IMG/VR virus record: IMGVR_UViG_640753020_000004
DNA length: 64,000 nt
Reading direction: 5' to 3' (one strand)
Source of the DNA: a virus
The notes under the pieces were generated by a model. The model saw only the letters and a list, made by a program, of their open reading frames with translations, did no database searches and had not been told where the DNA came from. Below, one piece after another: positions 7,709-51,807 of this stretch. Each line of letters opens with the position of its first letter. The first letter of the stretch is position 1. The position numbers were made by a program, and so were the translations under genes.

Positions 7709-7724
7709 ATTACTTGCATCTCCT

Positions 7725-9099: not shown

Positions 9100-9116
9100 T
9101 TAACCACCCCATTTAT

Positions 9117-9179: not shown

Positions 9180-9230
9180 TTAGCAAAATAAAAAAGCTAT
9201 CTCTAGCTCCTATTTTGCCTTTGTGTTTTA

Positions 9231-9386: not shown

Positions 9387-9586
9387 TAATTTGTACCTCC
9401 TTGTAATTGAATAACTTGCAATTTCAAATTAGCTACCTGCTGCCCTAGACCATCAATAACTACATCCTTCTGTATATTTTTTAATTTTTCCTGTGCTAAT
9501 TGCTGTCCTAAGCTTTGTAAAGTATTACCATCTTCTTTCTCCTTTTGTATTTTATTTACAACTGTAACATTTACATATCTACCCAT
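9386..9586 (-). CDS. Small tail-associated protein (XkdW-like position)
   Basis: Lies between the tail fibre and XkdX; LGQQLAQEKL repeat. Confidence 0.6.
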   Translation of the reverse strand: MGRYVNVTVVNKIQKEKEDGNTLQSLGQQLAQEKLKNIQKDVVIDGLGQQVANLKLQVIQLQGGTN

Positions 9587-9600
9587 AAATTTTCCTCCTT

Positions 9601-12600: not shown

Positions 12601-13392
12601 AGCTATATTAGAATTATCTGCAAATGTATCATAAAAACCTACACCTGTTTTGTTCACAAAGTCTATTGCTGTTTGTTCTTTAAGTTTTAACTTTACATCC
12701 ATTATTTCATTTCTTACTTGTATATCGTTGGTATTTAAATTATTTATTCTAGCATTTAAATTACTAAATTCTGTCTCATTATCTGCCTCATGCGACTTAA
12801 AATTACTATTAACTTCTTCCAAAGTGGTGCCATCATCTGTTTTTATATCAGAAGCTTTCAATACTACATTGCCGGTTTTTTCGTTTACTTTAGTTACTGG
12901 GAAAGATATATTTTGTATCTGATTTCTCAATTCCTGTATATCCTCTTGTGTAGCAAAGGTTACCGTTGGGTCTATTTTTAGGGTAACACTTGCAGAATTA
13001 GAGACCTCAAGTATCGTTCTTATCGTTATTTCCTTAGTACTTCCATCTGCTGCCTGTGGTTTATATGTTTCAGGATATTTACCCACAGCAAGCATATACC
13101 CTTCATCATCAAATATGCCAACCTCACGTATTGTAAACCCCCCTACATTAGATGGAATTGGTACAATAATAAATATCCAATTGGGATTATCCAGATCTGT
13201 AGTTATAGAATTTATATTCCCCTGCCATACAGTATGGACAAGATCCTCTTGTGCTTCTGTAGGGTTATAATAAGTACCGTTGCTATCTCCTACTTTTAAA
13301 GTAGTAAAATTCACCTTTGTTCCTAATGCTGTGGCATTAGCTATCTTAGCTTTTCCCACATTGGTAAGTATTGTATAAAAACTCTCTGCCAA
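9601..13392 (-). CDS. Tail fibre/receptor-binding protein: tail-collar (DUF3751-like) N-terminus plus two duplicated Asp-box/beta-propeller modules
   Basis: YTILTNVGKAKIANA..GDSNG..VREVGIFDDEG N-terminus; Asp-boxes SKDNGASF, SIDGGITW, SDDNGISW, SDDNGATW. Confidence 0.85.
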   Translation of the reverse strand: MAESFYTILTNVGKAKIANATALGTKVNFTTLKVGDSNGTYYNPTEAQEDLVHTVWQGNINSITTDLDNPNWIFIIVPIPSNVGGFTIREVGIFDDEGYMLAVGKYPETYKPQAADGSTKEITIRTILEVSNSASVTLKIDPTVTFATQEDIQELRNQIQNISFPVTKVNEKTGNVVLKASDIKTDDGTTLEEVNSNFKSHEADNETEFSNLNARINNLNTNDIQVRNEIMDVKLKLKEQTAIDFVNKTGVGFYDTFADNSNIAPETTASYDSENKRVNFPSVEPYTVKATSDYNGVALINVDKVVGVGDKIDNTNVITNVSSVNNSVTYDRATPVSVVNSGYTTSATARPQVLSNGWIVTCEFDSTGGNLYFKVSKDNGASFQALCSVLSISTTTYFAMCSYGTNIYVIFTNSTNVFKVIFDVTTVTNASQNINSIDSQTSIGAGCSIAVSSTGTLTAAWCSKNSNYSNTNNIRSAKSIDGGITWTKQDGTSGVDQVTVRGATTLGYVNPYVQYDKNNSPIIFSSYDCSAYKILAQIYNGSSWSEKTAYTAESTSYTQAHPTATLQKYGTNAGRIWVVWHGLDNTDTSVFNIYLSYSDDNGISWSSKQKLTSGNSYEQAYPSITSDINGYVYILWHGVNSAVSTSYKQIKQIIWNGSSWSSLISVTSVTTNQCLYPSTCDNYNNFTNPITIWQDSQNTRVAFYGKWTIGTITYDITLTDPVTVSENEELLIYPIEKMLKMKDEAFDTFNDLDLSLYVDKINKATIKGAVDNSTTVITGATDKTLTAGDKLLMDGVLNEVLNATGNFITNTVTDATVVNQAYDTSGNGGRKLVRLSNGWLVASCLCSTSQIKFYIDKRDGNGFIPSCTIYAGAAISSWAIQSKGNIIYGIHCTTSSKGSVCTFNFDATTIGTTTIDTSLTAYSIDSTQTDTEGGCSLVVDSTGNYLHAAWSSKNSTYPNSFNIRYCKGTINSDGSVTWGSVRQVTSINASDYNITTPTIILRQDNNPGIISSYVSSSANYIRFDYYDGTEWHTGEIQIYSGGAYAQSNPCAIFVPQSINGLANGRIWVSWVSGDSSDNNAIGVSYSDDNGATWSSRTKLSGSIFYAPTIAFNTDNEGFILCYNNDSNIYRTTWDASTGWSGVVSIISGGGKQYPSAIGEIFNFTIPLFIYKDGQTGQIGVKFRGRWTVGEGYTLTMQTPTTLTDGQQVPIADFEVKQEDVDLELDNIDTEKFIFKGSNLNTDNASIKILGKDNKLNAIAYAIA

Positions 13393-25301: not shown

Positions 25302-26146
25302 ATAGCCACCTCTCTAAGTGGTTTGTAAACCACATGAAAGGTTTTGTTCTTGCTTGGTATGTCCACAGGATATCCATTTTCTTTAAGCCACTTGTTGACT
25401 TTATCAGATACAGATTCAGTATATTTGATCACAGTACCCTGCCATGAACCACTACTTTCCCATACAACCTCTTTCTCATGTTCTTCAATATCCAGCTTTT
25501 TAATTATCTGTCCTACTGCTCCAAATGCAGGATTGCCTGTTTTAGAATACATTCCAACCATTTTGGCTATCTGTTTGGTATCATAGAACTTTTCCCTTGC
25601 TTCTATTTCTATGGGTATGTCCACTCCTGCTTTAGAGAATAATGTTTTAACTACCAGTAATTTAATAGTATTATCTACCCCGGCAACATCTAACAAAGGT
25701 GATACAAGCTCTACTGATTTATTTATGGTTTCTAGTTTTTCAGGTTGGTTGTTTTCTTTTAAGGCTTCTGTGTTAGCCTTCTCTGAAATGTAAGCTCCTG
25801 TTTGCCTTATAGAAGGAAGAACTTCATCAGTTACCCAATCTGTAAATTTTTCTGCTTCTGGTTTTTCGCTCTTAAATGCTATTTTATAAACTCCGCTTTC
25901 AGTAAGAAACTTCTCCCCTGCATTATTTAATTTTCGGATGTTTGCTAAACCAACATCCGAATTTGTAAATTTAACAGCTTGTTTATTATTCATTTTAGTT
26001 AGATGATATCTTACCGTTTCCTTCGCTATACCTAGACACTCTCCTACATGATAAGGGTTAAAATAAACCATCCCATTTATCTCAAACACTTCTACGTCAT
26101 GTCCTTCAAACAGCATTAAATTGTTGCTCATTATTATTACCTCCAA
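25298..26146 (-). CDS. BRO-N domain antirepressor-like protein (likely start 26131)
   Basis: FEGHDV..F..ING..YFNPYHVGECLG, FLTESGVYKIAFKSEKPEAEKFTDWVTDEVLPSIRQTG. Confidence 0.9.
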   Translation of the reverse strand: MEVIIMSNNLMLFEGHDVEVFEINGMVYFNPYHVGECLGIAKETVRYHLTKMNNKQAVKFTNSDVGLANIRKLNNAGEKFLTESGVYKIAFKSEKPEAEKFTDWVTDEVLPSIRQTGAYISEKANTEALKENNQPEKLETINKSVELVSPLLDVAGVDNTIKLLVVKTLFSKAGVDIPIEIEAREKFYDTKQIAKMVGMYSKTGNPAFGAVGQIIKKLDIEEHEKEVVWESSGSWQGTVIKYTESVSDKVNKWLKENGYPVDIPSKNKTFHVVYKPLREVAI

Positions 26147-26260
26147 TTTATTATTTTAAAAAATGTTTTAAAATAACTCAAAATAGTATATAATAATGAG
26201 TACAGAGTACTATTTTGAGTTAAACCCTTTGTTGAGTCGCCAAACTGGAACAAAGGGTTT

Positions 26261-26455
26261 TTAGTTTTCTTCATTGAAAAACAGATCCTTTACAGTTGAA
26301 TCAAGTGCTGTTGAAATTCTTTCCATCAATGACTTTGTCACATTTCCATAGTCTCCTCTTTCTATAGCAACTAACTTTTTAGGACTTGTTTTTACTATCT
26401 TACATAATTGAGCTTGTGTAAGTCCTTTTTTTATTCTTGCTTTCTTGACTTCCAT
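26261..26455 (-). CDS. Cro-like XRE HTH protein (second switch)
   Basis: VKKARIKKGLTQAQLCKIVKTS..LVAIERG; AGGAG RBS before ATG 26455. Confidence 0.85.
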   Translation of the reverse strand: MEVKKARIKKGLTQAQLCKIVKTSPKKLVAIERGDYGNVTKSLMERISTALDSTVKDLFFNEEN

Positions 26456-26479
26456 ATTACCACTCCTATTTTGTTTTAA

Positions 26480-26586
26480 TACCATATTGGTAATCTATAT
26501 TCATATATTATATCCATTTCGGTATGAAGTCAATACTAAATTGGTACTTTTTTAAAAATATTATATAAATATATTCCGTTTTGGAT
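26480..26586. promoter_or_regulatory. Four related 13-bp operators and divergent promoters of the second switch
   Basis: TACCA-tat-TGGTA (26480), ATCCA-ttt-CGGTA (26512), TACTA-aat-TGGTA (26534), TTCCG-ttt-TGGAT (26574); TTGACT -35 on the minus strand at 26533-26528. Confidence 0.65.
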
Positions 26587-26619
26587 ATAATACATATATA
26601 ATTACTATGAGGTGGTAAA

Positions 26620-27405
26620 ATGAATGTTGGTGCAAAGATCAAAGAAATAAGAGAATCTAAAAATTTAACACAAAAACAATTAGCCGAAAAAATTGGAGTT
26701 ACGCCAGTTACTATAACTAGGTATGAAAATAACAAGAGAGAACCTAGCATAGAAACTTTAAATAAAATAGCTAAAGCTCTTGATGTAACTATTAACGATT
26801 TAGCTGGTGAAAAAGATACCGTTACTAAAAAAGTTTTAAAACAACTCATATCTGGAGGTGTAAATTTAGAACAATTATCTACAGATACAAAAATTCATAT
26901 AGATAGATTAAATTCCCTACTTAAAAACGATGATGCAACTTGTGATGAAATTCAACAAATAGCTAAATATACTGATTGCACAGATGAAGAAATTGCACAG
27001 TGGATTCTATCAGATGCTGTTACAACAGCTGTATATAACAATAAAGACAAAAATAATCATCAAGCTGAATTATTAAAAAAAATTTTTTTAAATGGTAGAA
27101 TCTCAAAAGACGATTTATTATCAGAATTAACTAATGATGATAAAGATTTTATCAATCAATTCTATCCATATATAAATAATAAAAATAATGAAGATTACAT
27201 ACAAATACCAGGAGGTTTTTTTGCAAAATCTGAGATTTTACATCCTGGTGCATTTTATGAAGCTATCGCCACAATTTGCTATTACGTAGATAAGGACTTC
27301 ACGAAATTAAATTTATCAGATGATGAATATAAAAGTTTGGGCGAAAAATTAAAAAACCTAGTTGAATTTGAGTTATTTAAGATATCTAAAAGTAGAGACA
27401 AATAA
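26620..27405 (+). CDS. CI-like XRE repressor (second switch)
   Basis: VGAKIKEIRESKNLTQKQLAEKIGVTPVTITRYENNKREP; a second HTH-like segment; divergent from the cro-like gene. Confidence 0.88.
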   Translation: MNVGAKIKEIRESKNLTQKQLAEKIGVTPVTITRYENNKREPSIETLNKIAKALDVTINDLAGEKDTVTKKVLKQLISGGVNLEQLSTDTKIHIDRLNSLLKNDDATCDEIQQIAKYTDCTDEEIAQWILSDAVTTAVYNNKDKNNHQAELLKKIFLNGRISKDDLLSELTNDDKDFINQFYPYINNKNNEDYIQIPGGFFAKSEILHPGAFYEAIATICYYVDKDFTKLNLSDDEYKSLGEKLKNLVEFELFKISKSRDK

Positions 27406-27514
27406 ACACCCACACTCGCCTTTAAAACGGGTGTGTTTTTCTATGAAAAAGTTTAGTATAAAAATTAGAATTATGCTAATACTATAATTGATCTTAAGCA
27501 AAGGAGTAATTGAT

Positions 27515-28457: not shown

Positions 28458-28654
28458 TAAATTTTCCTCCTAAAATTTATTTATCTAGGAGCGACCGGAA
28501 CATACCCGGTCATTCCTCTCTCCTAGGAGGTTCAGCATGTCTCACGACGTTCTTTGCCCCAAAATAAAAAACACCCCAAAAGGTGTTTTTTATTATTTTT
28601 GAATATAAAAAAGAACCACATGAGTGATTCTTTTATTACTATTATTGTATGCTC

Positions 28655-29494
28655 TTAGTCGAATACGCTACTTAGCTGCTCTAACTGTCCCAATTGCTGT
28701 AAATTAGTTTTAGCATATTGATTATTAGAATCTAATTGTATAGCTTGATTAAAATACTTCTTAGCATTTTCATAATCTTTGTTACCTTCATAGTCTAACC
28801 CTAATATATTATATGCATTTGACTTTTCTTCATTAGATTTAGTATTTTCTATATATTTATTTGCAGCACTGATTGATTCGTCATATCTTTCTAAATGTGA
28901 ATAAACATATGCTAAGGCATAGTAACTTTCATTATAACTAGGAGATATTTTGATCGCTTCATTTAAGATTGTTGCTCCCTGATTTAAGTCTTTATCTTTT
29001 CCTTTTCCTTCAATATACATCCAAGCTAGATCATTCATAGAATCTGTCAACACATCTTTTCCATTTTCTTTTTCCCGATATACTTTCCATCCACCATTGT
29101 CATTGACAATATATCTTTTATAATTTACTGACGCATCCTTGTTATTATAATTATCATGGCTACTATCAACTACATTAAATTCAACAGCATTTTCATAAGT
29201 AATGTTATCTAATTTTTTATTTTTGTACTCATTACCTTTATCTATTTTTGCACCTTTAAAAGTATAAGTTTCTTTTTGAGTTTCAACCCATTTTATAAAA
29301 TCTTCTTTTTGAAAATTCTTCTTACTTGCCTCTGCCAAAGTATCATAGGCTGCTTCTGCATCTCCATTTTTAATATTGTCATAATAACTATTCAAGACTT
29401 GAACAGGATCTCCTTTAGGTGTACACCCCACAAATCCAACTGATAAAATTACTATTGACATTATTGCTAGTTTAGAAAGTAATTTTTTCAACAT
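28655..29494 (-). CDS. TPR-repeat lipoprotein moron
   Basis: Signal peptide with lipobox FVGC; C-terminal TPRs; own promoter TGGACA-N17-TACAAT at ~29530-29560. Confidence 0.8.
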   Translation of the reverse strand: MLKKLLSKLAIMSIVILSVGFVGCTPKGDPVQVLNSYYDNIKNGDAEAAYDTLAEASKKNFQKEDFIKWVETQKETYTFKGAKIDKGNEYKNKKLDNITYENAVEFNVVDSSHDNYNNKDASVNYKRYIVNDNGGWKVYREKENGKDVLTDSMNDLAWMYIEGKGKDKDLNQGATILNEAIKISPSYNESYYALAYVYSHLERYDESISAANKYIENTKSNEEKSNAYNILGLDYEGNKDYENAKKYFNQAIQLDSNNQYAKTNLQQLGQLEQLSSVFD

Positions 29495-41935: not shown

Positions 41936-43197
41936 ATTCTCACCCCTTTCAATAAAGATAAATCACTACTTGATACTGGATACAATGTTTGGATTAAATA
42001 TCTAAGTGCATCCATAGCATGGTCATTCTGCTTTAATGGTTTATCCTCACCATGTTTTTGTGCTTTATCATCCCATATATAAGACTCAAATTCTTTTATG
42101 AGATTAGGACACCTGTTCTTAACTATATGAATTCTTTCATCATTGAGCCATGTCGTTACATTACTTATTCCATCTATTACGGTATTATCTGCTTCAAGTA
42201 CGGATATTCCATCTTGTCTAAATAAGTTAATTAGTGATGTAGCTGATGGGTCTATTATTACGTTTCTAGGTTTTATACCTTTAGCAAAATCTTTGTAATC
42301 CGATAGGAATAAATTATCTGTCTTAGGGCTACCGCCATCACCTTTGTTATAATATTCATCAACTATGAATATATGTGGTATATGTTCATACAACCTAACT
42401 GCGGCTTTCAAATACACGTGGGGATTTGTTATCCCATAATCGCATGGGATATAAAATATTAAATTGTCTCTAGGAACCTCATCTATTGATATACAATGCT
42501 TTTTCTCATCAAATCCAGGGTATATAACTCCATCTGCCATTACCCATAACCCTTTGATAAATCGATCATAAAATAATCCCGAATAAGCTTTTTTTATATT
42601 TTCCTTATATTCCTCACTTAAAGTTAAATTATCATCTAAATCAAAGTGCCAATGGCAATATTCATTCTCCTTGCACTTATCAATATATTCAGTTCTTATA
42701 TAGTGATAAGGACTATCTGGATTAGTTGTCCAAAAAGCCTTTGCGCCTTTTAAACTCATTCTTGATAATGCTTGTTTAACGAAACTCTCATGATGCAGCG
42801 TTATTTCATCAGCCATCCATCCACCAATAGTGATACCTCTTATCTTCCCCTCGTCATTTGCTTTGGAGCCTCCTCTGCAGTAACATATTTTTGTTCTGCC
42901 ATCATAATTTATTATAAGTTGGGCTCCACCTTTAGAACTATCCTGATAAGACGCTTTATTTTGGCCAAGAATATATATCATATCTCCTATAACATTTCTA
43001 TATAATGAATCAGTGCTTTCACCTGACATGAGAAATTTATCATACGGAGAATTCAGTATAAATAAAGTCCATGCTAGATTTACTATAAATGTTTTACCAC
43101 TCCTTACACTTCCTTCAAGAATATTAATAAAGCCCATTTGATTATTTAATAATTTCTTCACAACATCCTTTTGTTTAGGAGAATATTTATAACTCAT
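41926..43197 (-). CDS. Terminase large subunit (PBSX XtmB-like)
   Basis: EGSVRSGKT Walker A, ADEIT Walker B, TTNP, DYG, DPSA, NDHAMDALRY. Confidence 0.93.
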   Translation of the reverse strand: MSYKYSPKQKDVVKKLLNNQMGFINILEGSVRSGKTFIVNLAWTLFILNSPYDKFLMSGESTDSLYRNVIGDMIYILGQNKASYQDSSKGGAQLIINYDGRTKICYCRGGSKANDEGKIRGITIGGWMADEITLHHESFVKQALSRMSLKGAKAFWTTNPDSPYHYIRTEYIDKCKENEYCHWHFDLDDNLTLSEEYKENIKKAYSGLFYDRFIKGLWVMADGVIYPGFDEKKHCISIDEVPRDNLIFYIPCDYGITNPHVYLKAAVRLYEHIPHIFIVDEYYNKGDGGSPKTDNLFLSDYKDFAKGIKPRNVIIDPSATSLINLFRQDGISVLEADNTVIDGISNVTTWLNDERIHIVKNRCPNLIKEFESYIWDDKAQKHGEDKPLKQNDHAMDALRYLIQTLYPVSSSDLSLLKGVRIWG

Positions 43198-43969
43198 TTT
43201 TCAAACCTTCCAGCATCTCTTTTAATACTCCATCATTTCCTTTATCCTTATCAGGATTTTTAACCTTCTCCACCTCAGCCCTAAGCTTTTCCATCCTCAA
43301 CCTCTGTTCTTCTGTTGCCATGTCTGGGTTGTTATGAACCATCTCATCATGTTGCTTGATAAGGCTCCTTAACTCTGCCATAGCCCTTGATTGAGCTTTA
43401 AGGAATGTGGCTTGTCTGTCCCATGCAAATTGGAACTCATATTCAAATTCTTTTTCTGATTCATTAGTGGAAGTTTTCTGCGTGCTTCTATCTTTAGTCT
43501 TAACCTTGGACTTTTTAAGTTCCTTAATCATTTCCTCTTTACTCTTAACATCCATAATTCTCTGAGACCTTGCTATGGCCGTATATTGAATTATTATATT
43601 TTCCCAGAGCATATCCAAAGGATTTTTAATCATAATATCCTGCACCACCTCCATTGTTTCAGGCGGAAAAATCTTAGAAAAAAAGCCATGGGATTCAGCG
43701 TTTTTGTTTCCCTTTGGTACGCTGCTCACATGACCTTTTGAATTCTTATTTTGTGGTTGGCCGCCCTTTTTTCGTTTAGTTGCGCAACTATTCCCGTTTG
43801 ATTGCGCAACTTTATTTTTATTGTCCCAATTATCCTGAGCTTTCCAATTTCTAACCTGACTTTCGGAAACATTTAAAACCTTTGCTATATCCTTACATAA
43901 TAGTGTTTTACCCGATTCTAAGTACATTTGTTTAGCTTTATCCCGGTTCGGGCTTCTCTGTCTCGGCAT
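43187..43969 (-). CDS. Terminase small subunit (PBSX XtmA-like)
   Basis: MPRQRSPNRDKA, N-terminal HTH, GGQPQN.N, GN.NA..HGF. Confidence 0.9.
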   Translation of the reverse strand: MPRQRSPNRDKAKQMYLESGKTLLCKDIAKVLNVSESQVRNWKAQDNWDNKNKVAQSNGNSCATKRKKGGQPQNKNSKGHVSSVPKGNKNAESHGFFSKIFPPETMEVVQDIMIKNPLDMLWENIIIQYTAIARSQRIMDVKSKEEMIKELKKSKVKTKDRSTQKTSTNESEKEFEYEFQFAWDRQATFLKAQSRAMAELRSLIKQHDEMVHNNPDMATEEQRLRMEKLRAEVEKVKNPDKDKGNDGVLKEMLEGLKNEL

Positions 43970-44047
43970 CTCTACATTGTCACCACCTGCCTCATTCGTT
44001 TTGTTTGGGGGATGAAGAAAGAGCCCTGTTGGGGGGCTCTTTGAATA

Positions 44048-46030
44048 CTATAAAAATATATCTTCTTCAAAACTAGATTCTTCTTCAATTTGATTCTTCA
44101 GTTTAACACATTCATCGTAATTGAATATATATTTTTCACGTGATAGATTAATCTTATTACTATGGTTGAAAACAATTAAAAATTCATTAAGCAGACCAAA
44201 AGTTTCTTCTTCATTTGTGGTATTTTCATTTTCTATACTTAATATATATTTATCACTATCAAAACTTTCAACAGATCTATATAAATCAATTAAATCATCT
44301 TCACTTCTAACCCTCTTTACTATAGAAGAATTTTTGCTAGTCAATAAATCTATCAGCACATCCAAATCTTTATCTTTGCTATAGCATCCAATTGCCATAT
44401 TAAAATACTTAGTGTGTATAATGCGACGTTTACTTAACCTAGACTTATCCCATTGTTCAAAAATATCACTGCTTATATACCTTTTTCCCGATTTATCTTT
44501 ATCAAAAAATCCTATATAAACTTCATCATAAATAAAATTTATATTTTTTCTTATATCCAACACTCGTCTATCATAACTCTCATATTTTTTGTCTGTATAC
44601 GAACTATCATAATATTCAATAAACTCTTTTATAATTGGATAAACTATTGCTTTTCTAAACTCCTTATAATCTATATCATAACAAAAATCTAATACATTAT
44701 AATACTTAGATATTTTTTCTCCTTGTATCATTGTCCATAAATACACATCTTGTTTCTCCTTTGAATCATAGCAAATATAACTCGCCGCAAAATATTCTTG
44801 AAATGACTTGTGAATCCATCTATATTCAACGCCATCTTTTATAAATATCGGAACAGCATGAACAATATCATAAATGAAATCATTTGCTTTAAACTGTATT
44901 CCTACCGCCATTGATTTCGCTTTATTTACTATTTTAATAAGCTCCTCCTTGCAATAACTTATCCCTTTGCTTAATGTAATAAATCCTAATATTCTAAGCA
45001 CCCTATGAAAATCCTCTATATCAAGTTTGCTATTTTTAGGATGTACATAGGCTCCTCCTTTAGTTCTATCATGATCCTGAAATAAAGCATCATATACTTG
45101 CCTATAAAATATTTGTTTTTTGTAAGGAACTACCCTTTTATATTGAAAAGCTATATAAAGTAATGAAACCATTAAAGGATTTACCAAAAATTCATCAATT
45201 ATTCTTAAATTTTCTTCACCATTAAGACTTCTTATTAATTCTTTTGATAGTTCTCCATTATTGTCATATTTACAAATTAATTCGTATGCTTCCTTTTTAG
45301 TTAATGCTTTTATATCAAACCTTTGAAAATCTGAAAAACAACTGAGAGCATTTTCATCTCTAGATGATATCACAAAATTATTACTCAAATTTTTTGTAGT
45401 TGAAGTTTTTGATATGAAATTTTGTAGATTTTCTGTAACTTCTTTCTTGTTTTCATCTATTATCTCATCATATCCATCAAAGAAAAACACGAAACCACCT
45501 TCTTCAATTAAATCTAAAATCTCCTTTTTACTAAAATATTCTTTTATGCCATTAATTTCACTAACAATAAAATCAATTATAGAAGTATCTACTTTTAATT
45601 TTCTTAGTTCTATTAACACCGGAATACCCTTATTTTCTTTTATAATACTCAGATATAAATATTTTAATATAGTTGATTTCCCCATTCCAGCACTATCTAC
45701 CAATAAAACTTTGCTATAATGTGGTACAAAATTATCATGATATCTATCTATACAAATTCTAACATTATCTTTATTATTTGTTGAACATTTTGATACATTT
45801 AATGGTATGTATAAATCATCTATAGTCTTTTGCTGATTTTTAAAAGCAATAGTATTCATATATAAATTGCTATTATACGAACGCTCCATATATTCATTAA
45901 ATTTATCTTCAAAGCCCAATTTATTATTAATATTTAGTAGTTCTAGCCGCGGCTTTATATATGTACTTATAACTAATTTTATCATTTCACTTATACCAGC
46001 AGTAACTGCTATCTTTGTAAATTCTTCCAT
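44048..46030 (-). CDS. NACHT-family STAND NTPase (bacterial NLR-related, effector-less type)
   Basis: Walker A DSAGMGKST, PVLIELR, Walker B FFFDGYDE, ISSR, NPL, W.HKSFQEYFAA. Confidence 0.9.
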   Translation of the reverse strand: MEEFTKIAVTAGISEMIKLVISTYIKPRLELLNINNKLGFEDKFNEYMERSYNSNLYMNTIAFKNQQKTIDDLYIPLNVSKCSTNNKDNVRICIDRYHDNFVPHYSKVLLVDSAGMGKSTILKYLYLSIIKENKGIPVLIELRKLKVDTSIIDFIVSEINGIKEYFSKKEILDLIEEGGFVFFFDGYDEIIDENKKEVTENLQNFISKTSTTKNLSNNFVISSRDENALSCFSDFQRFDIKALTKKEAYELICKYDNNGELSKELIRSLNGEENLRIIDEFLVNPLMVSLLYIAFQYKRVVPYKKQIFYRQVYDALFQDHDRTKGGAYVHPKNSKLDIEDFHRVLRILGFITLSKGISYCKEELIKIVNKAKSMAVGIQFKANDFIYDIVHAVPIFIKDGVEYRWIHKSFQEYFAASYICYDSKEKQDVYLWTMIQGEKISKYYNVLDFCYDIDYKEFRKAIVYPIIKEFIEYYDSSYTDKKYESYDRRVLDIRKNINFIYDEVYIGFFDKDKSGKRYISSDIFEQWDKSRLSKRRIIHTKYFNMAIGCYSKDKDLDVLIDLLTSKNSSIVKRVRSEDDLIDLYRSVESFDSDKYILSIENENTTNEEETFGLLNEFLIVFNHSNKINLSREKYIFNYDECVKLKNQIEEESSFEEDIFL

Positions 46031-46059
46031 ACATTGCTTACCCCCTTGTTTGTATTAAC

Positions 46060-46122
46060 CTTCTACAAAATAACCCAAAATTCCTCCTAAATTTTAGAGG
46101 AATTTAACATTTTATGTTGAAT
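46060..46122. promoter_or_regulatory. Back-to-back sigma-H-like promoters for DUF2188 (+) and NACHT (-)
   Basis: Plus: AGGA (46098)-N17-GAAT (46119). Minus: AGGA-N18-GAAG with TTTTGTAGAA. The -35 boxes form an inverted repeat. Confidence 0.55.
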
Positions 46123-46123
46123 A

Positions 46124-46375
46124 TTGGTATTGAAGGAGGTGATTGCTGTGGGTAAAAATCAACATGTTACTTATAATAAAGATGATAACACTTGGAATGT
46201 AAAAGGTGAAGGCAATTCTAAAGCAACTAAAATTACCAACACCAAACAAGAAGCTGTTAATATTGCTAGGAAAATAGCCAATAATCAAGATTCAGAATTA
46301 GTTATCCATGGAAAGGATAATAAAATCCAATCCAAGGATAGCCACAGACATGATCCTTTTCCACCAAAAGGTTAA
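46124..46375 (+). CDS. DUF2188 protein
   Basis: NQHV...W.VKGEG..KAT..TKQEA...AR.IA.NQ..ELVIHG..G-type motif, HDPFPPKG. Confidence 0.9.
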   Translation: MVLKEVIAVGKNQHVTYNKDDNTWNVKGEGNSKATKITNTKQEAVNIARKIANNQDSELVIHGKDNKIQSKDSHRHDPFPPKG

Positions 46376-46527
46376 TTTCTATCATAATTAGGAGTTAGCC
46401 TTATCCTATAACCACTAGCTGCGTCAGCATCTTCATTTGTTATTTCAGCTATGGTTGTATGATTTTCTTCGTCAGTTTCAACAACTATTTTAGTATATTT
46501 ATCTGATAACACATCTATACTCTCCAT
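46372..46527 (-). CDS. Small acidic protein (51 aa), convergent with DUF2188
   Basis: Open frame MESIDVLSDKYTKIVVETDE..; RBS. Confidence 0.55.
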   Translation of the reverse strand: MESIDVLSDKYTKIVVETDEENHTTIAEITNEDADAASGYRIRLTPNYDRN

Positions 46528-46534
46528 TATATTC

Positions 46535-46696
46535 TCACCTCACCCTCCTAACAGCACCCTTGACCCTCCTGTAGCACTCATGCCGTATCAATTTTTCTAT
46601 ATCAGAAAAGGAGAGGTATTCGCCTCTCCCTGGTTTGTCTTTATTTAGTTTTCTATCCTGGTTAAGCTTTTCTTTTAAGATTTCTCTTATCTTCAT
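46535..46696 (-). CDS. Small basic phage protein (53 aa)
   Basis: MKIREILKE..LSFSDIEKLIRHECYRRVKGAVRRVR; GAGG RBS. Confidence 0.6.
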   Translation of the reverse strand: MKIREILKEKLNQDRKLNKDKPGRGEYLSFSDIEKLIRHECYRRVKGAVRRVR

Positions 46697-46883
46697 ACCT
46701 CTCACCTATTTCTTTTTTACGTAAGAAGAGTATATCTGAAATTTAAATATTAGTGTAAAAAGGAGATATGTTAAACAGATATACTCATAGCAAGTAACTA
46801 TCTGGAGGTTAGTTACACTTATATTCATATATATGCTCTAACTTTAATATTTATACACTCTCTAATGATTCTCAACTCTTATT

Positions 46884-46941: not shown

Positions 46942-47232
46942 ATGAGTATCAATGATTCTAATGACAACTCCAATGACAAAGTTGAAAATTCTTATGACTT
47001 TGGAGCTTCCATGTATTGCCCATACTGCTCAATGCCCTATACTGGACCAATCCAAGATGAATATATAGATGTAGATCCTTATGATAAAGACTTTGATGAA
47101 AATTTTGATGATGACTTCAATCCCGGATATAGACAAAGACGTCGTAGAAGACGTAGGCGTAGACGCAGAAGGCATAGACGTGGGTTCCCTCTTTGGCCAT
47201 TAATATTTTTCTACGACGACTGGTATTGGTAA
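46942..47232 (+). CDS. Spore-coat/exosporium-like protein (acidic N-terminus, CPYC, poly-Arg, aromatic C-terminus)
   Basis: GGAGG RBS; RQRRRRRRRRRRRRHRRGFPLWPLIFFYDDWYW. Confidence 0.6.
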   Translation: MSINDSNDNSNDKVENSYDFGASMYCPYCSMPYTGPIQDEYIDVDPYDKDFDENFDDDFNPGYRQRRRRRRRRRRRRHRRGFPLWPLIFFYDDWYW

Positions 47233-47358
47233 TAAAAAATATTTTACACTTTATAAATATACTTAATTTAATCATTATAAAAAATAAGCACCCTAAATAA
47301 TGAGTGCTTATTTTAATAATATTATTTTTTAAGGATAGAATCTTGATACATCAATTTC

Positions 47359-47615
47359 TGGCGGTTGCATTTTAAGTTTTAAGTGCCCTGCAACCACAGA
47401 CACAGACTTAAATTTACATTTGGTGGGAACCTAATTTATAAGCCATTTTTTTATTATATACATTACTTGTTACAATCCAATGTCCTATGTGACAACTATT
47501 TGTAAACAATGCAAAATAGACACTGCATTAACAGTGCCTATCTCTGACATACACATATATAGTTTTATTTTATTTGCGGTTTCCCGCATTGGTAGCTATA
47601 CTTTAGGCTATAGCC
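47359..47615 (-). ncRNA. Cluster of hairpins including two tRNA-acceptor-like minihelices ending in NCCA
   Basis: GGCTATA-8-TATAGCT-A-CCA (47615-47590); GGTTGCA-19-TGCAACC-G-CCA (47395-47359); GCGG-GAAA-CCGC; GGCACTG/CAGTGTC. Confidence 0.45.
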
Positions 47616-47627
47616 AAACCTGTATAC

Positions 47628-49111: not shown

Positions 49112-49726
49112 TCACTTACCCATCTGCTTCAAATCATCCTTAAAAGCCCTGGAATTACAAATCATATTGACATATTCTTTTATTTTAAGCTTCGGAACCT
49201 TAGTACTTTCCTTTTTCTTCTCTATATCAACATCAATTTGTTTTATGGTTAGGTTAAGAGAATTAATTTCTTCCTGCAGCAATTGGATTTTATCAAAATA
49301 CCTTTCTCTTTCCAGAGTTTTGGCATTTACATAATCGACTATGGATCTTTCACTTTCTTCTAAATCTTCCTTCAGTAAATTTATTTCCATCAGAAGATCC
49401 TTAACAATATTTCTATTGGTTTTCCCAGGGAACCCAAAGTCTACTTTAATAAGTGTAACAATTACTGATTCATCTTTACTCAAAACAAGGAGTATATCAT
49501 CCTTCACGTAAAATCTCCTGACTACCTTATCCTCACCAATCCGGTCCTCTATTAAGAAATCAGAATAAGTAAATATCTTATTTACATCCTGTATTATACG
49601 TTCATTATTGGCTGCCACATATTCCTGGACAGCAAAGTTACCAGTTATACCTTTCACTCTTTCTACATATCTCGTTTTGCAGTGTTTGGTCAAATCTATA
49701 TGTTTACGTTCTGCCATTACTTCCAT
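49112..49726 (-). CDS. Hypothetical phage protein
   Basis: Open frame, LTKHCKTRYVER motif, C-terminal coiled coil. Confidence 0.6.
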   Translation of the reverse strand: MEVMAERKHIDLTKHCKTRYVERVKGITGNFAVQEYVAANNERIIQDVNKIFTYSDFLIEDRIGEDKVVRRFYVKDDILLVLSKDESVIVTLIKVDFGFPGKTNRNIVKDLLMEINLLKEDLEESERSIVDYVNAKTLERERYFDKIQLLQEEINSLNLTIKQIDVDIEKKKESTKVPKLKIKEYVNMICNSRAFKDDLKQMGK

Positions 49727-49750
49727 ACAATCCCTCCATGCCCATTCTTT

Positions 49751-49951
49751 TTAAACTAACTTTCTACCGCATATAGGACAATACTTTATCTTAAAATGTC
49801 CTTGTGCAAGTCTATGCCTAAATAATACTATTCTAGGTTTATCACCTTTCAGTTGAAATATTACAGCTTCATTAGGTTGTGTTTCTTTACTGTCAGGGCT
49901 TTTATTTACAAGAATGCTTTTTCCATATTCACCGTCACAATATTGGCACAT
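49751..49951 (-). CDS. Small zinc-binding protein
   Basis: MCQYC..IKYCPICGRKL. Confidence 0.7.
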   Translation of the reverse strand: MCQYCDGEYGKSILVNKSPDSKETQPNEAVIFQLKGDKPRIVLFRHRLAQGHFKIKYCPICGRKLV

Positions 49952-49973
49952 AAGCTATTCCTCCTTAACTTAT

Positions 49974-50135
49974 TTACCTCCCATGCCTGTCCCATTCCTT
50001 TTTAAAATTCTTATAACTCTTAGCACTTTCCTTCCTGCAATTCCTAACAACTACATAAAGGCCTATTATCCCAACTATACTCAACAGAACCCATGCTCCC
50101 AAAAACACATACCCTAATTTTATTAAATGTTCCAT
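49974..50135 (-). CDS. Single-TM small membrane protein (53 aa; not in the ORF track)
   Basis: MEHLIKLGYVFLGAWVLLSIVGIIGLYVVVRN..; AGGTGAG RBS. Confidence 0.55.
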   Translation of the reverse strand: MEHLIKLGYVFLGAWVLLSIVGIIGLYVVVRNCRKESAKSYKNFKKEWDRHGR

Positions 50136-50158
50136 CTACTCACCTTTTCCATAATCAT

Positions 50159-50536
50159 CTATTTAACATTTCTAAAAAGCTTTATCTTATCTACCGTATT
50201 TAAAAAATCATATATGGTTTTCCTTTTCATTTCTCTTGTAAAGGCCATTTCATAACGCTTAACAAAATCATCTGCTGCAATATCTAATATGTTAAGATTA
50301 TTTCCACTTTCATTTTTTGTATTTGCTTCATTGGGTGTATTTGCTTTATTGACTTTTGCTAAATTATTTTTTAACCATTCATGAGCCTCATTAACTTTTT
50401 TCATTTCTTCATCTTTCCCTGTAATATCAGGATGAACCTCTTTTGCTTTAGCTCTATATGCTTTTGAAAGCTGTTCTTCTGATATCGGAAACTTTTTTTC
50501 CATTCCTAAAACCTTAAAGGCTTCATTGGCATTCAT
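50159..50536 (-). CDS. J-domain (DnaJ-like) protein
   Basis: AFKVLG..LSKAYRAKAKEVHPD..MKKVNEAHEWL with an intact HPD. Confidence 0.85.
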   Translation of the reverse strand: MNANEAFKVLGMEKKFPISEEQLSKAYRAKAKEVHPDITGKDEEMKKVNEAHEWLKNNLAKVNKANTPNEANTKNESGNNLNILDIAADDFVKRYEMAFTREMKRKTIYDFLNTVDKIKLFRNVK

Positions 50537-50854
50537 CTAATCACCTTCCTTCAATTTAACGCTTACAACCAAAGGATCATCCTTTAGATGCTTTCTAGTA
50601 TAAACCAAGCTATATGGTAACAAACTTGTCAAACACCCTTTTATACCCCATATAATTAAAAATGGTGCTGTAATTATAACTCCAACAACAGATAAAATAA
50701 GTTTGAATAACCCAAGATATGTTTCCTTTATATTCTTAAAATAATATCCTTTATTTCTAAAAACAAATACATACTGAATTCTCTTATTTGGATTATATTT
50801 AATTCTAATTTTTTTCAATATTCTCTGCTGCTGAATAGTTTTTATTATAGTCAT
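50537..50854 (-). CDS. Hypothetical membrane protein
   Basis: Hydrophobic segment LILSVVGVIITAPFLIIWG. Confidence 0.55.
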   Translation of the reverse strand: MTIIKTIQQQRILKKIRIKYNPNKRIQYVFVFRNKGYYFKNIKETYLGLFKLILSVVGVIITAPFLIIWGIKGCLTSLLPYSLVYTRKHLKDDPLVVSVKLKEGD

Positions 50855-51017
50855 CTACTCACCTTCTTTAAATTCCCATGTATAATAAATCCAATTTTGC
50901 ACATACTATCTTTGTGTTCCATTATGTAATTATGTTTTAATGTATGTGTAACATAATTAATCCTTATGCCGGGGATTATTTATCCCCGGTGTTTAGTTTT
51001 ATTACAAAGTATTTGTA

Positions 51018-51329
51018 TCACGAATCAACTTCTAGCCACTGATCAATTAATCCATACAATTGAACAGCATCCCAGGAATATTCAGCCTCTATACAAATAT
51101 GTTGACCACCAAGCTCCCCAAATGTAATTCTTACAGTCCCTCCTATTTCATCATCCCATATAAATTCAAAGCCATTTTCAATAGACATTACATTGTCTGG
51201 TGTTGCAATGTCTTTAAATTTCATTTCATCTATACTTAAACTTGATTCATCAGCTATATGCTTTTTTAAAGAATTATTGATATCTTTATCCATATCATGG
51301 TATATGAATAAGACGTTTTTTAACTCCAT
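51018..51329 (-). CDS. Hypothetical protein
   Basis: Open frame with RBS. Confidence 0.55.
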   Translation of the reverse strand: MELKNVLFIYHDMDKDINNSLKKHIADESSLSIDEMKFKDIATPDNVMSIENGFEFIWDDEIGGTVRITFGELGGQHICIEAEYSWDAVQLYGLIDQWLEVDS

Positions 51330-51337
51330 ATTTACAC

Positions 51338-51667
51338 CTACTTCCTACTTGCATTAAAATTAACCTCTGCACAAGCCTCACAACCCCTGTCAACCAACTT
51401 TTTATTATGCCTATGGAATCCCTGGACTATGTCAAAATTCTCTCTAAAAAGCTTGGCCAAGATTCCTATACCCACCTGAATAACGTCCAGCACCTCTTCC
51501 ATTATCTTTTTCTTATCTCCAGAGGAGAGAGCTTCACACAGCTCTCCTGCTTCCTCCAAAACTTTCTTTTTCCAATCCTGCCAGGTCATTGTCCTGTGGT
51601 CTATTTTATTACCTTTGCGGTCTATTAGTTTTCTAAGCACCATTAGCTTTAGTTTCAATGTGTTCAC
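51338..51667 (-). CDS. MazG-like nucleotide pyrophosphohydrolase
   Basis: KVLEEAGELCEA..IMEEVLDVIQ (EExxE/EExxD). Confidence 0.8.
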   Translation of the reverse strand: MNTLKLKLMVLRKLIDRKGNKIDHRTMTWQDWKKKVLEEAGELCEALSSGDKKKIMEEVLDVIQVGIGILAKLFRENFDIVQGFHRHNKKLVDRGCEACAEVNFNASRK

Positions 51668-51807
51668 CTTCTCAATTCTTCAATTTGTCTTATATATCCA
51701 GAAGCCATAGCTTTATACTGTTCTGGCCTATCTGGTAATAGCTTTTCTTTTAGGCATTGCAAGCTCTTTTCTAGTCTATCTATTTGTTCCTTCTTGGATT
51801 TATCCAT
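51664..51807 (-). CDS. Small hypothetical protein (47 aa)
   Basis: MDKSKKEQIDRLEKSL..; open frame overlapping the MazG start. Confidence 0.5.
   Translation of the reverse strand: MDKSKKEQIDRLEKSLQCLKEKLLPDRPEQYKAMASGYIRQIEELRR

What the first reader, a model, noticed from the sequence alone, without database searches (positions are those of the whole stretch)
44048..46030. Prophage-borne NACHT (NLR-related) protein with no obvious effector domain
Seen: a complete NACHT module, a short N-terminus and an unrecognised ~230-aa C-terminus, inserted just upstream of the small terminase with its own promoter. Established: bacterial NACHT proteins defend against phage, and some lack separate effector domains. 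Inference: a defence moron whose C-terminus is the sensor. How the phage avoids self-triggering during lytic growth is an open question.
Basis: partly seen in the sequence, partly recalled or inferred. Interest (0 to 1): 0.65.

Follow-up and report, generated by a model that had tools for sequence, protein, structure and literature searches.

The report
Prophage-borne bacterial NLR-like defence gene
A Clostridium prophage carries, in a cargo slot just before its DNA-packaging genes, a complete single-gene bacterial NLR-type (NACHT) protein of a family already shown to protect bacteria from phages, so it is a well-formed new member of a known kind of immune gene and not a new system.

Summary
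The 660-aa ORF at 44048-46030 (-) is real and intact. It has a two-helix N-terminus, a complete NACHT module (Walker A AGMGKST, NACHT-type Walker B DGYDE, NLRC4/NOD2/NLRP3-like fold) and a C-terminal domain. That domain is not unrecognised: it matches Pfam SNaCT5 (PF22711, E 3e-44, full length).

The protein is collinear from residue 1 to about 470 with bNACHT01, a validated antiphage protein (hhalign 99.7%). As in that clade, its C-terminal domain is far more variable than the NACHT core.

The gene behaves as a self-contained cargo cassette:
- It has 25.9% GC against 34.2% for the prophage.
- An intrinsic terminator follows its stop codon.
- Its upstream neighbour is a divergent gene.
- Two other prophages in the same genome keep the same flanks with only about 320 bp between them.

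Related NACHT-SNaCT5 genes sit immediately upstream of terS in C. difficile (phiCDHM1 and prophages), C. perfringens, C. sporogenes, C. botulinum and Lachnospiraceae prophages. They form one Bacillota clade.

The likely mechanism, by analogy with bNACHT11, is that SNaCT5 senses foreign phage protein, ATP-dependent oligomerisation follows, and the clustered N-terminal helices kill the cell. Nothing here is experimental. Verdict: new member of a known kind, of moderate interest.

The parts
44048..46030 (-). NACHT-SNaCT5 gene, 660 aa (P0001), a single-gene bacterial NLR-related protein
   Evidence: ORF and translation. Pfam NACHT plus SNaCT5. PHROG 18297 over the full length. An identical second copy lies in the sibling prophage at C1:1969311-1971290.
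45863..46030 (-). N-terminal extension, aa 1-56: two predicted helices (2-32, 37-56). Helix 1 contains the moderately hydrophobic stretch IAVTAGISEMIKLVISTYI. Proposed effector.
   Evidence: AF2 secondary structure. Kyte-Doolittle 19-residue mean 1.48 at residues 7-25. Aligns with the N-terminus of bNACHT01. The effector role is inferred from bNACHT11 mutagenesis.
44675..45862 (-). NACHT module, aa 57-452 (pre-NBD strands, P-loop NBD, helical domain, winged helix). Walker A is at nt 45671-45691 and Walker B DGYDE at nt 45464-45478.
   Evidence: Pfam PF05729. Invariant motifs. Fold matches to NLRC4, NOD2 and NLRP3. hhalign to bNACHT01 at 99.7%.
44075..44674 (-). SNaCT5 domain, aa 453-652: a hypervariable alpha/beta domain. 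Proposed sensor.
   Evidence: PF22711 E 3.1e-44, 1-196 of 196. Mean column entropy 2.57 vs 1.24-1.30 bits in NACHT, Mann-Whitney p about 1e-37. Folds confidently alone (pLDDT 84.8, pTM 0.85). No invariant acidic or histidine residues after the N445/D448/Y451/D452 junction motif; beyond it only K566, F611 and C641 are invariant.
44051..44074 (-). Acidic C-terminal tail ending in F-L (...SFEEDIFL). The family consensus is ...D-I-D-F-L.
   Evidence: Tally of C-termini in 120 relatives. bNACHT01 ends ...NEFFDL. In bNACHT11 the last 7 residues dock into the neighbouring SNaCT and are required for oligomerisation; the same role here is inference.
44014..44040 (-). Intrinsic terminator directly after the stop codon (AGAGCCC-loop-GGGCTCT followed by TTTCTTC), 45 nt before the terS start
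   Evidence: Sequence and fold. Equivalent hairpin plus U-tract follows the NACHT stop in L005, L007, L009, L010, phiCDHM1, L024 and L036.
46031..46123 (-). Upstream control region. It holds the RBS AAGGGGG (46041-46047), a hairpin (46078-46105), the palindrome AACATAAAATGTT (46106-46118) and weak sigma-70-like hexamers (TCAACA-18-TAAAAT; TTGGGT-15-TAATAC).
   Evidence: Sequence and scan. The palindrome, hairpin and TGTAGAA element is shared with the C. sporogenes and C. botulinum cassettes, and it also precedes the next cargo ORF in L013. Promoter function is not shown.
46124..46375 (+). Divergent DUF2188 gene (83 aa), part of the same about 2.5-kb cargo block
   Evidence: PF09954 E 5.7e-23. 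phrog_3220 E 3.4e-30.
46372..46527 (-). 51-aa phage ORF inside the cargo block
   Evidence: phrog_3150 E 1.4e-18.
46535..46705 (-). Conserved 56-aa phage ORF: the left flank of the slot, also present in the 'empty-site' prophages
   Evidence: phrog_3928 E 3.3e-14. Homologous at 88-94% DNA identity at C1:3343827-3344001 and C1:2960763-2960939.
43187..43969 (-). Small terminase subunit: the right flank of the slot
   Evidence: PF10668 E 2.6e-42. phrog_509 E 2.5e-84. Its 5' leader (43935-44022) is conserved at 90-96% in three other prophages of the genome.

Best explanation
This is a prophage-carried, single-gene, abortive-infection-type immune sensor of the bacterial NLR-related (bNACHT) kind. 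It has the architecture of Kibby et al.'s clade 14: a short N-terminal extension, a NACHT NTPase and a short non-repeat C-terminal SNaCT domain.

Proposed mechanism:
1. The lysogen makes the protein from an insulated cassette. (Inferred; a 51%-identical homologue in phiCDHM1 is transcribed in lysogens.)
2. The hypervariable SNaCT5 domain binds one or more proteins of a superinfecting, unrelated phage. (Inferred from bNACHT11.)
3. ATP-bound NACHT modules oligomerise into a ring, probably helped by the conserved acidic ...F-L C-terminal tail. (Inferred.)
4. The clustered N-terminal helices damage the membrane or osmotic homeostasis and kill or arrest the cell before the invader completes its cycle. 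(Inferred.)

The resident phage's own proteins presumably do not fit the sensor. Two 99%-identical sibling prophages carrying the identical gene coexist in this chromosome.

The gene occupies a cargo slot next to the packaging genes. A whole Bacillota lineage of this family uses the same slot in otherwise unrelated Clostridia phages.
For: Anatomy and family:
- Pfam NACHT plus SNaCT5.
- Invariant Walker A, the D-G-h-D-E Walker B signature that defines NACHT (definition), R224 and H407.
- NLRC4/NOD2/NLRP3-like fold.

Link to a validated defence protein:
- bNACHT01 = WP_015632533.1 was retrieved from a K. pneumoniae plasmid.
- It aligns with this protein over residues 1-470 (BLASTP E 5e-27; hhalign prob 99.7%, E 7.7e-27).
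- Both have similar N-termini (MDIIQELTKAGITVA vs MEEFTKIAVTAGISE) and similar C-terminal ends (FFDL vs DIFL).

Sensor-like evolution:
- SNaCT5 entropy is 2.57 bits vs 1.24-1.30 in NACHT.
- In cross-phylum relatives only residues about 1-480 still align.

Mechanistic precedent: bNACHT11's SNaCT binds phage proteins, the protein forms a heptamer, and the roughly 45-aa N-terminus is required for plasmolysis-type death.

Cargo status:
- GC is 25.9% vs 34.2% for the prophage and 32.0% for the chromosome.
- The gene has its own terminator and a divergent upstream gene.
- Two other prophages in this genome keep both flanks about 320 bp apart, with a 53-63-aa hydrophobic ORF instead.
- Only the NACHT gene is shared at DNA level with phiCDHM1.

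Same slot elsewhere:
- The gene lies immediately upstream of terS, or has a terminase gene 0.6-2.7 kb downstream on the same strand, in phiCDHM1, C. sporogenes, C. difficile and C. perfringens and in L013, L015, L021, L022, L024, L025, L036.
- All of these fall in one Bacillota clade.

Expression of a homologue: Orf84 of phiCDHM1 was detected by RT-PCR in lysogens and in infected culture.
Against: - No phenotype exists for this protein or for any SNaCT5-type member.
- PADLOC-DB v2 gives no hit. NCBIfam gives only a negligible EruA hit.
- The N-terminal MDPIT/MEPIS motif is not present. Its D2 and P3 are essential in bNACHT11. This protein starts MEEFT, and only 1 of 120 relatives starts M[DE]P. 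The effector chemistry may therefore differ.
- SNaCT5 has no detectable sequence similarity to the SNaCT of bNACHT01. The bNACHT11 structure was not in the PDB copy, so 'same sensing mode' is untested.
- The strictly conserved position next to terS could also mean a role tied to the phage's own packaging or late programme.
Confidence: 0.7

Rival explanations
1. The sensor is indirect. The protein is still a defence NLR, but SNaCT5 monitors a host factor or a host-cell perturbation (as bNACHT25 does through DnaJ) instead of binding phage proteins directly.
For: Published precedent within bNACHTs (PMC12169576, listed; mentioned). An indirect sensor could explain how very different resident phages, with terminases of four or more families, can all carry the gene without triggering it.
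Against: The strong diversification of SNaCT5 is more typical of an interface in an arms race with rapidly changing ligands or inhibitors than of one bound to a conserved host chaperone. The closest architecture studied (bNACHT11, the SNaCT clade) binds phage proteins directly.
Confidence: 0.15
2. The protein serves the phage's own life cycle, not defence. It could be a packaging-linked or late-stage switch, for example timing host killing or release, analogous to the CARD-NLR-like system that controls gene-transfer-agent release.
For: The position immediately upstream of terS, on the same strand and 50-80 bp away, recurs in unrelated Clostridia phages. All such genes form one clade. The title and abstract of PMC13236601 (listed; the paper itself was not read) report an NLR-like system that controls GTA release. 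RNA-library contigs cover the gene together with the late genes (not quantitative).
Against: - The gene is dispensable for the phage type: sibling prophages in the same genome have other small cargo in the slot, and other phiCD119-like phages lack it.
- A terminator separates it from terS in every case examined.
- Its GC content is foreign.
- Close relatives in Bacillota (L014, L033, L065) and 64 loci from other phyla are not next to terminase genes.
- Hotspots next to the cos site are already known to collect defence cargo in P2 and P4.
Confidence: 0.1
3. The gene is a silent or decaying passenger with no current function.
For: No direct expression data exist for this strain. The RNA runs are contigs only.
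Against: The ORF is intact. All catalytic motifs are invariant. The two copies are identical. Hundreds of full-length relatives of 650-680 aa exist. The phiCDHM1 homologue is transcribed.
Confidence: 0.05

Closest known systems
bNACHT01 (Klebsiella pneumoniae MGH 35, WP_015632533.1; Kibby et al., bioRxiv 10.1101/2022.07.19.500537)
   Same: Both are single-gene systems with a short N-terminus, a NACHT module and a short non-repeat C-terminal domain. They are collinear over residues 1-470 (23% identity, hhalign 99.7%). The N-terminal helix sequences are similar and both proteins have a hydrophobic-acidic C-terminal end. In both, the C-terminal domain is more variable than the NACHT core.
   Different: The C-terminal roughly 190 aa are not alignable, and bNACHT01 gives no Pfam SNaCT5 hit. 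bNACHT01 lies on an enterobacterial conjugative plasmid beside ThiF-family adenylyltransferase and Mov34/MPN genes (Kibby et al. place it near a CBASS system). This gene lies in a Clostridium prophage next to terS. bNACHT01 has a demonstrated phenotype (T4, T5, T6; Walker A K115-dependent); this gene has none.
bNACHT11 (bioRxiv 10.1101/2024.12.17.629029)
   Same: Same clade architecture. It supplies the mechanistic template: SNaCT is the sensor, ATP-dependent ring assembly follows, the C-terminal tail docks into the neighbouring protomer, and a roughly 45-aa N-terminal extension is the death effector.
   Different: The N-terminal MDPIT motif (D2 and P3 essential) is replaced here by MEEFT followed by a more hydrophobic helix. 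Beta-augmentation sensing and heptamer stoichiometry are untested here. I could not retrieve the sequence or structure of bNACHT11 for direct comparison.
Orf84/gp84 'putative signalling/NTPase protein' of Clostridium phage phiCDHM1 (HG531805; Hargreaves et al. 2014, PMC3901668)
   Same: 51% identical over residues 6-542. It is the last gene before terS in the circular map and is followed by the same kind of terminator. It was noted in 2014 as a NACHT gene absent from related phages and similar to C. kluyveri proteins. It is transcribed in lysogens.
   Different: The phage backbone is different; only the NACHT gene matches at DNA level. It was described before bacterial NACHT defence was known and was never tested for defence.
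[quoted passage not shown] 2022, PMC9122126)
   Same: A variable cargo slot lies directly beside the packaging site or genes of temperate phages. It holds autonomous antiphage genes that differ between otherwise similar prophages.
   Different: The phage groups and hosts differ (Enterobacteria vs Clostridia). Here the slot lies between the late-regulator/small-ORF region and terS. The breadth of cargo in the Clostridia slot was sampled only superficially.
Avs/AVAST STAND sensors (Avs1-4 and later families)
   Same: They are STAND NTPases that sense phage proteins and trigger abortive infection through N-terminal effectors.
   Different: Avs proteins are much larger, with TPR or other repeat sensors and enzymatic effectors. 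This protein belongs to the NACHT branch, with a small globular sensor and no enzymatic effector domain.

Membership tests
NACHT module (STAND NTPase) | Walker A P-loop GxxGxGK[ST] | tested here: met
   AGMGKST at residues 114-120, invariant in 36 relatives.
NACHT module (STAND NTPase) | Walker B with the NACHT signature D[GAS]hDE (definition quoted) | tested here: met
   D185-G-Y-D-E189. D185, G186, D188 and E189 are invariant.
NACHT module (STAND NTPase) | Profile match above the curated threshold | tested here: met
   PF05729: 32.6 bits against a gathering score of 26.7, E 8.7e-8.
NACHT module (STAND NTPase) | NBD-helical-winged-helix fold of NLRs | tested here: met
   AF2 model pLDDT 81.9. 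Top Foldseek hits are NLRC4 4kxf (E 9e-13), NOD2 and NLRP3.
NACHT module (STAND NTPase) | NTP binding and NTP-dependent oligomerisation | not testable with these tools
   Needs biochemistry.
Clade-14-type bNACHT (bNACHT01/11-like, NACHT + SNaCT) | Homology to a validated member over the N-terminal extension plus NACHT | tested here: met
   hhalign of A2 vs bNACHT01: prob 99.7%, E 7.7e-27, columns 6-474 vs 2-462. BLASTP E 5e-27.
Clade-14-type bNACHT (bNACHT01/11-like, NACHT + SNaCT) | Short non-repeat C-terminal SNaCT domain, with no TPR, LRR or other repeats | tested here: met
   PF22711 SNaCT5, 1-196 of 196, E 3.1e-44. Compact alpha/beta model.
Clade-14-type bNACHT (bNACHT01/11-like, NACHT + SNaCT) | SNaCT diversifies faster than NACHT | tested here: met
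   Mean column entropy 2.57 vs 1.24-1.30 bits, Mann-Whitney p about 1e-37.
Clade-14-type bNACHT (bNACHT01/11-like, NACHT + SNaCT) | N-terminal MDPIT/MEPIS-like motif (D/E2 and P3 essential in bNACHT11) | tested here: not met
   The protein starts MEEFT: E2 is present and P3 is absent. Only 1 of 120 relatives starts M[DE]P[VILFM][TS]. bNACHT01 itself starts MDIIQ.
Clade-14-type bNACHT (bNACHT01/11-like, NACHT + SNaCT) | C-terminal tail that docks into the neighbouring protomer | tested here: inconclusive
   A conserved acidic tail ending in F-L or F-I is present. Docking could not be modelled.
Clade-14-type bNACHT (bNACHT01/11-like, NACHT + SNaCT) | Placement inside clade 14 on the published NACHT phylogeny | not tested
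   No reference tree or sequences of the other clades were at hand. My tree used the three enterobacterial proteins, bNACHT01 among them, only as outgroup.
Clade-14-type bNACHT (bNACHT01/11-like, NACHT + SNaCT) | Walker-A-dependent protection against phage | not testable with these tools
   Experimental.
Phage moron / prophage cargo cassette | Present or absent between related phages with conserved flanks | tested here: met
   The flanks 43935-44020 and 46529-46705 lie about 320 bp apart at C1:2960361-2960939 and C1:3343454-3344001. The gene is absent from other phiCD119-like phages.
Phage moron / prophage cargo cassette | Own transcription terminator | tested here: met
   Hairpin plus U-tract at 44014-44040. 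The same is found in seven homologous cassettes.
Phage moron / prophage cargo cassette | Own promoter, with expression from the repressed prophage | tested here: inconclusive
   The upstream gene is divergent, and terminators precede the cassette in L005, L007 and L036. Promoter-like hits are at background level. RNA runs are contigs only. The phiCDHM1 homologue is transcribed in lysogens.
Phage moron / prophage cargo cassette | Base composition unlike the surrounding phage genes | tested here: met
   GC 25.9% vs 35.8% for terS-portal and 34.2% for the prophage. GC3 is 0.17 vs 0.24-0.27.
Catalogued defence systems (PADLOC-DB v2.0.0) | Match to a defence-system HMM | tested here: not met
   0 families at E <= 1.

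The most novel reading that the evidence does not exclude
The Bacillota NACHT-SNaCT5 lineage is a phage-adapted 'kin-guard'. It has co-evolved with the terS-proximal slot and is tuned to ignore the resident phage while sensing early or packaging proteins of rival phages or satellites. In this reading its conserved upstream palindrome/hairpin element and flanking terminators form a portable regulatory cassette that couples its expression to the lysogenic state. A stronger variant is that the resident phage exploits it during its own late phase.
Probability: 0.15. Interest if true: 0.6.

Novelty: new member of a known kind. Interest (0 to 1): 0.38.

Why it matters
Bacterial NLR-related proteins are the prokaryotic counterparts of animal inflammasome sensors. 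The tested members named in the papers read here come from enterobacteria and were assayed in E. coli. This locus adds three things:

- It shows a compact clade-14-type member as autonomous prophage cargo in Clostridia.
- It shows that a whole Bacillota lineage of the family travels in one slot beside the small terminase gene of unrelated phages, including C. difficile, C. perfringens, C. sporogenes and C. botulinum prophages.
- It gives a natural test bed for self versus non-self discrimination by an NLR, because two near-identical prophages each carry the same allele.

It also flags a gap: PADLOC v2 does not detect this subfamily, so prophage-encoded immunity in Clostridia is under-annotated. 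None of this changes the known picture of how bNACHT proteins work.

Tried and rejected
- PADLOC scan: no hit.
- NCBIfam: only a negligible EruA hit, 12 bits against a cut-off of 1000.
- Sequence search of the PDB: nothing at E <= 0.01. The bNACHT11 cryo-EM structure was not in the PDB copies searched.
- Fold search of the isolated SNaCT5 model: no meaningful match. Foldseek best E 0.09. VIA-align best Z 3.3 to MarR/PadR winged-helix proteins, below the tool's stated noise level. The fold therefore remains unassigned.
- RNA evidence. 16 RNA-library runs from five studies hold all or part of the stretch, 12 of them nearly all of it. All are Logan contigs, so level, strand and transcript ends cannot be read. 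Contig breaks near 43.9-44.1 kb cannot be told apart from assembly branch points caused by the paralogous prophages. The 'joint' 43992->46531 in one run, with only 26 letters on its shorter side, matches the empty-site prophages elsewhere in the genome. It is not evidence of excision.
- Rfam on 40-52 kb: nothing at E <= 0.1.
- Palindrome AACATnnnATGTT: a single copy in the window, and 22% of shuffles reach that count. Only its conservation in other cassettes is suggestive.
- Megablast of 38-50 kb against the phage collection: only the NACHT gene of phiCDHM1 matches.
- Pfam scan of genes downstream of 29 non-Bacillota relatives: no terminase among the listed families (only 25 of 62 families were shown). 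A phmmer check with nine TerL queries also found none outside Bacillota (limited sensitivity).
- Considered and rejected: a C-terminal enzymatic effector. SNaCT5 has no conserved catalytic-type residues.
Full report
**Observation.** The minus strand carries one uninterrupted ORF at 44048..46030, 660 aa. An AAGGGGG ribosome-binding site lies 10 nt upstream of the ATG. Pfam finds a NACHT domain above its gathering score (residues 109-255, 32.6 vs 26.7 bits). [quoted passage not shown] The whole protein matches PHROG 18297 end to end (E 4e-168), so phage-encoded relatives are already in databases. PADLOC-DB v2 does not flag it.

In an alignment of 36 relatives (38-68% identity) the following are invariant: Walker A AGMGKST (114-120), Walker B D185-G-Y-D-E189, R224 and H407. 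The Walker B sequence is exactly the D[GAS]hDE signature that Kibby et al. use to separate NACHT from other STANDs. An AlphaFold2 model built on that alignment (pLDDT 81.9, pTM 0.75) matches NLRC4, NOD2 and NLRP3 best (Foldseek E 9e-13 to about 1e-8). The NACHT call is therefore solid.

**Relation to validated defence proteins.** A tblastn search of plasmids found enterobacterial NACHT proteins that align from residue 1. One of them, on a K. pneumoniae IncF plasmid, is WP_015632533.1. This is bNACHT01, the founding antiphage NACHT protein. The window protein and bNACHT01 are collinear over residues 1-470 (23% identity, BLASTP E 5e-27; profile-sequence hhalign 99.7%, E 7.7e-27). The alignment covers the N-terminal extension as well as the NTPase. 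The last roughly 190 residues do not align, and bNACHT01 has no SNaCT5 hit.

That is the published behaviour of this clade: the NACHT core is stable and the SNaCT diversifies fast. I reproduced it for this subfamily. Mean column entropy is 2.57 bits in SNaCT5 against 1.24-1.30 in the NACHT core (Mann-Whitney p about 1e-37). In cross-phylum relatives only residues about 1-480 remain alignable. All 78 relatives whose ORF could be delimited in other genomes are 585-880 aa, mostly 640-680, which shows a very uniform architecture.

**What the 'missing effector' probably is.** For bNACHT11, of the same architecture, a 2026 preprint version reports the following:
- SNaCT binds several unrelated phage proteins by beta-augmentation plus a hydrophobic patch.
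- ATP-dependent heptamerisation follows.
- The last seven residues dock into the neighbouring SNaCT and are required.
- The roughly 45-aa N-terminal extension, although it is not a recognisable domain, is needed for plasmolysis-type cell death.

Here the first 56 residues are predicted as two helices. Residues 7-25 (IAVTAGISEMIKLVISTYI) are moderately hydrophobic (Kyte-Doolittle 1.48, against 0.69 for the equivalent stretch of bNACHT01). The C-terminus ends in a conserved acidic tail with terminal F-L: EEDIFL here, DIDFL as the family consensus, FFDL in bNACHT01.

The specific MDPIT/MEPIS motif is not conserved. The protein starts MEEFT, and only 1 of 120 relatives starts M[DE]P. I therefore treat 'the N-terminal helix is the effector' as an inference, with the chemistry possibly different.

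SNaCT5 shows no conserved catalytic-type residues. It folds confidently on its own as an alpha/beta domain (pLDDT 84.8, pTM 0.85) and has no meaningful match among solved structures. In a Bacteroidota subclade of about 875-aa relatives, the extra roughly 210 residues are N-terminal and weakly resemble an Mrr-type nuclease (E 0.002, below threshold). That fits the rule that effectors sit on the N-terminal side.

**Context in this genome.** Downstream on the same strand lie terS (43187-43969), TerL, portal and a MuF-like head protein. The window is part of a chromosome of 3,964,618 bp; a second contig has 59,182 bp.

The gene occurs twice, 100% identical and 68 kb apart, because two roughly 99%-identical prophages lie close together. 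Between window positions 36001 and 52000 the two copies differ at one base.

The gene has 25.9% GC (GC3 0.17). The prophage has 34.2%, terS-portal 35.8% and the chromosome 32.0%.

Directly after the stop codon there is a canonical intrinsic terminator (44014-44040), 45 nt before terS. Upstream, the neighbour is a divergently transcribed DUF2188 gene (46124-46375 +). The NACHT gene therefore cannot simply ride on an adjacent same-strand gene.

Two other prophages of the same genome (at C1:2.960 Mb and 3.343 Mb) retain the terS leader (homologous to 43935-44020) and the small ORF 46535-46705. In them these flanks are only about 320 bp apart, with a 53-63-aa hydrophobic ORF in between. The 2.5 kb holding NACHT, DUF2188 and a 51-aa ORF is therefore exchangeable cargo in a defined slot.

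**The same slot in other phages.**
- In phiCDHM1 the 51%-identical gp84 is the last gene before terS. It is the only part of that phage that matches this prophage at DNA level.
- Exact-sequence look-ups of relatives from C. sporogenes, C. difficile (three prophage backgrounds) and C. perfringens all show NACHT-SNaCT5 50-70 bp upstream of terS on the same strand. The terminases belong to different families: Terminase_2, GP3_package and Terminase_5.
- In a scan of species-representative genomes, TerL lies 0.6-2.7 kb downstream in 7 of the 16 Bacillota loci and in none of the 64 loci from other phyla. The tally for other phyla is limited by phmmer sensitivity and by the truncated Pfam tally.
- On a FastTree phylogeny all 12 terminase-adjacent genes fall in one Bacillota clade of 18 rows (support 100). 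The label needs 3 changes on the tree against 11.4 in shuffles (0 of 500).
- The terminator after the stop codon is present in all eight cassettes that showed one (window, L005, L007, L009, L010, phiCDHM1, L024, L036; no clear one in L013 and L025).
- Several cassettes are also preceded by the terminator of the upstream gene.
- The C. sporogenes and C. botulinum cassettes share a palindrome/hairpin/TGTAGAA element upstream. It is partly present in the window and also precedes the next cargo ORF in L013.

This is an insulated, portable transcription unit. The positional analogue in the literature is the cos-adjacent defence hotspot of P2 and P4.

**Expression.** Sixteen RNA-library runs from five studies hold all or part of the stretch, twelve of them nearly all of it. 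They are available only as assembled contigs, which cannot give level, strand or transcript ends. I draw no conclusion from them. Hargreaves et al. (2014) detected transcripts of the phiCDHM1 homologue by RT-PCR in two lysogens and in infected culture. They noted that the gene is absent from related C. difficile phages and resembles C. kluyveri proteins. The contig sizes match what I recall for C. kluyveri DSM 555. That is recollection, not a test. An earlier follow-up note of this scan calls the element a Clostridium prophage.

**Mechanism and self-triggering.** The best-supported reading is a lysogen-expressed abortive-infection sensor that works like bNACHT11/01. How the resident phage avoids triggering it cannot be answered here. 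The relevant facts are these:
- Phages with very different packaging and head genes all carry the gene.
- The gene is separated from the late operon by a terminator.
- Two sibling prophages with the same allele coexist.

These facts fit a sensor whose ligand is absent from the carrier phages, or an expression or inhibition control. A conserved upstream palindrome is a candidate operator, but as a single copy in the window it is not significant on its own.

**Rivals.** The alternatives are an indirect, host-factor sensor; a role in the phage's own late programme; and a silent passenger. Each is weighed in the Rival explanations section.

**Novelty.** The kind (bNACHT clade with SNaCT), the domain (Pfam SNaCT5), prophage carriage of STAND defence genes, and even a phage NACHT gene in C. 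difficile (2014) are all on record. I did not find the following stated in the papers I searched:
- A Bacillota lineage of this family resides in the terS-proximal slot of unrelated Clostridia phages as a terminator-bracketed cassette.
- The slot shows a presence/absence polymorphism within one genome.

This makes the finding a well-documented new member of a known kind, with moderate interest.

Noticed in passing
window 4073 to beyond 62565, and C1:1930001-1992210 (outside the window): Two roughly 99%-identical prophages lie about 68 kb apart on the chromosome. The long collinear blocks are 98.9-99.3% identical. The blocks with no or weaker match are about 5450-6450, 8360-12915 (inside the 1263-aa ORF 9601-13392), 25810-27410 and 28635-29480. 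This could be tandem polylysogeny or a duplicated segment with later mosaic replacement.
   Followed up: partly
window 47280-47523 (also 47356-47620): A roughly 250-nt non-coding stretch in the cargo region upstream of the NACHT cassette is a dispersed repeat. About 17 further copies lie on the chromosome at 73-86% identity. It has no Rfam match. It overlaps the stretch another first-reader note calls tRNA-like minihelices.
   Followed up: partly
window 46942-47232 (+): A 96-aa ORF sits on the opposite strand inside the cargo region. It is low-complexity (an Arg run and acidic repeats) and has no Pfam or PHROG hit. Related DNA occurs in other prophage-like regions of the genome.
   Followed up: partly
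window 43970-44013; L005, L007 and the phiCDHM1 terS leaders: The short leader between the NACHT terminator and terS (CCCAAAACAAACAAA...GAGGTGGTG) is similar in phages whose terS proteins belong to different Pfam families. It is 90-96% conserved in three other prophages of this genome. Where the late promoter for terS lies relative to the terminator is unclear.
   Followed up: no
L013:7933-9035 (C. botulinum ATCC 25763 prophage): In this relative the slot holds a second cargo gene (314 aa, no Pfam or PHROG hit) between NACHT and terS. It is preceded by the same palindrome/hairpin/TGTAGAA element that precedes the NACHT genes.
   Followed up: partly
G000 contig C2 (59,182 bp): 4051-8384: The second contig shares 70-90% identical stretches with the prophage's early/regulatory region (window 49151-51670). 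It may be a plasmid carrying phage-related genes or a phage-plasmid.
   Followed up: no
L019, L027, L031, L038, L052 (Bacteroidota relatives): A subclade of about 875-aa relatives carries an extra roughly 210-aa N-terminal region. In two of the four N-terminal regions scanned it weakly matches Mrr_cat restriction endonuclease (E 0.002-0.005, below the gathering score).
   Followed up: partly
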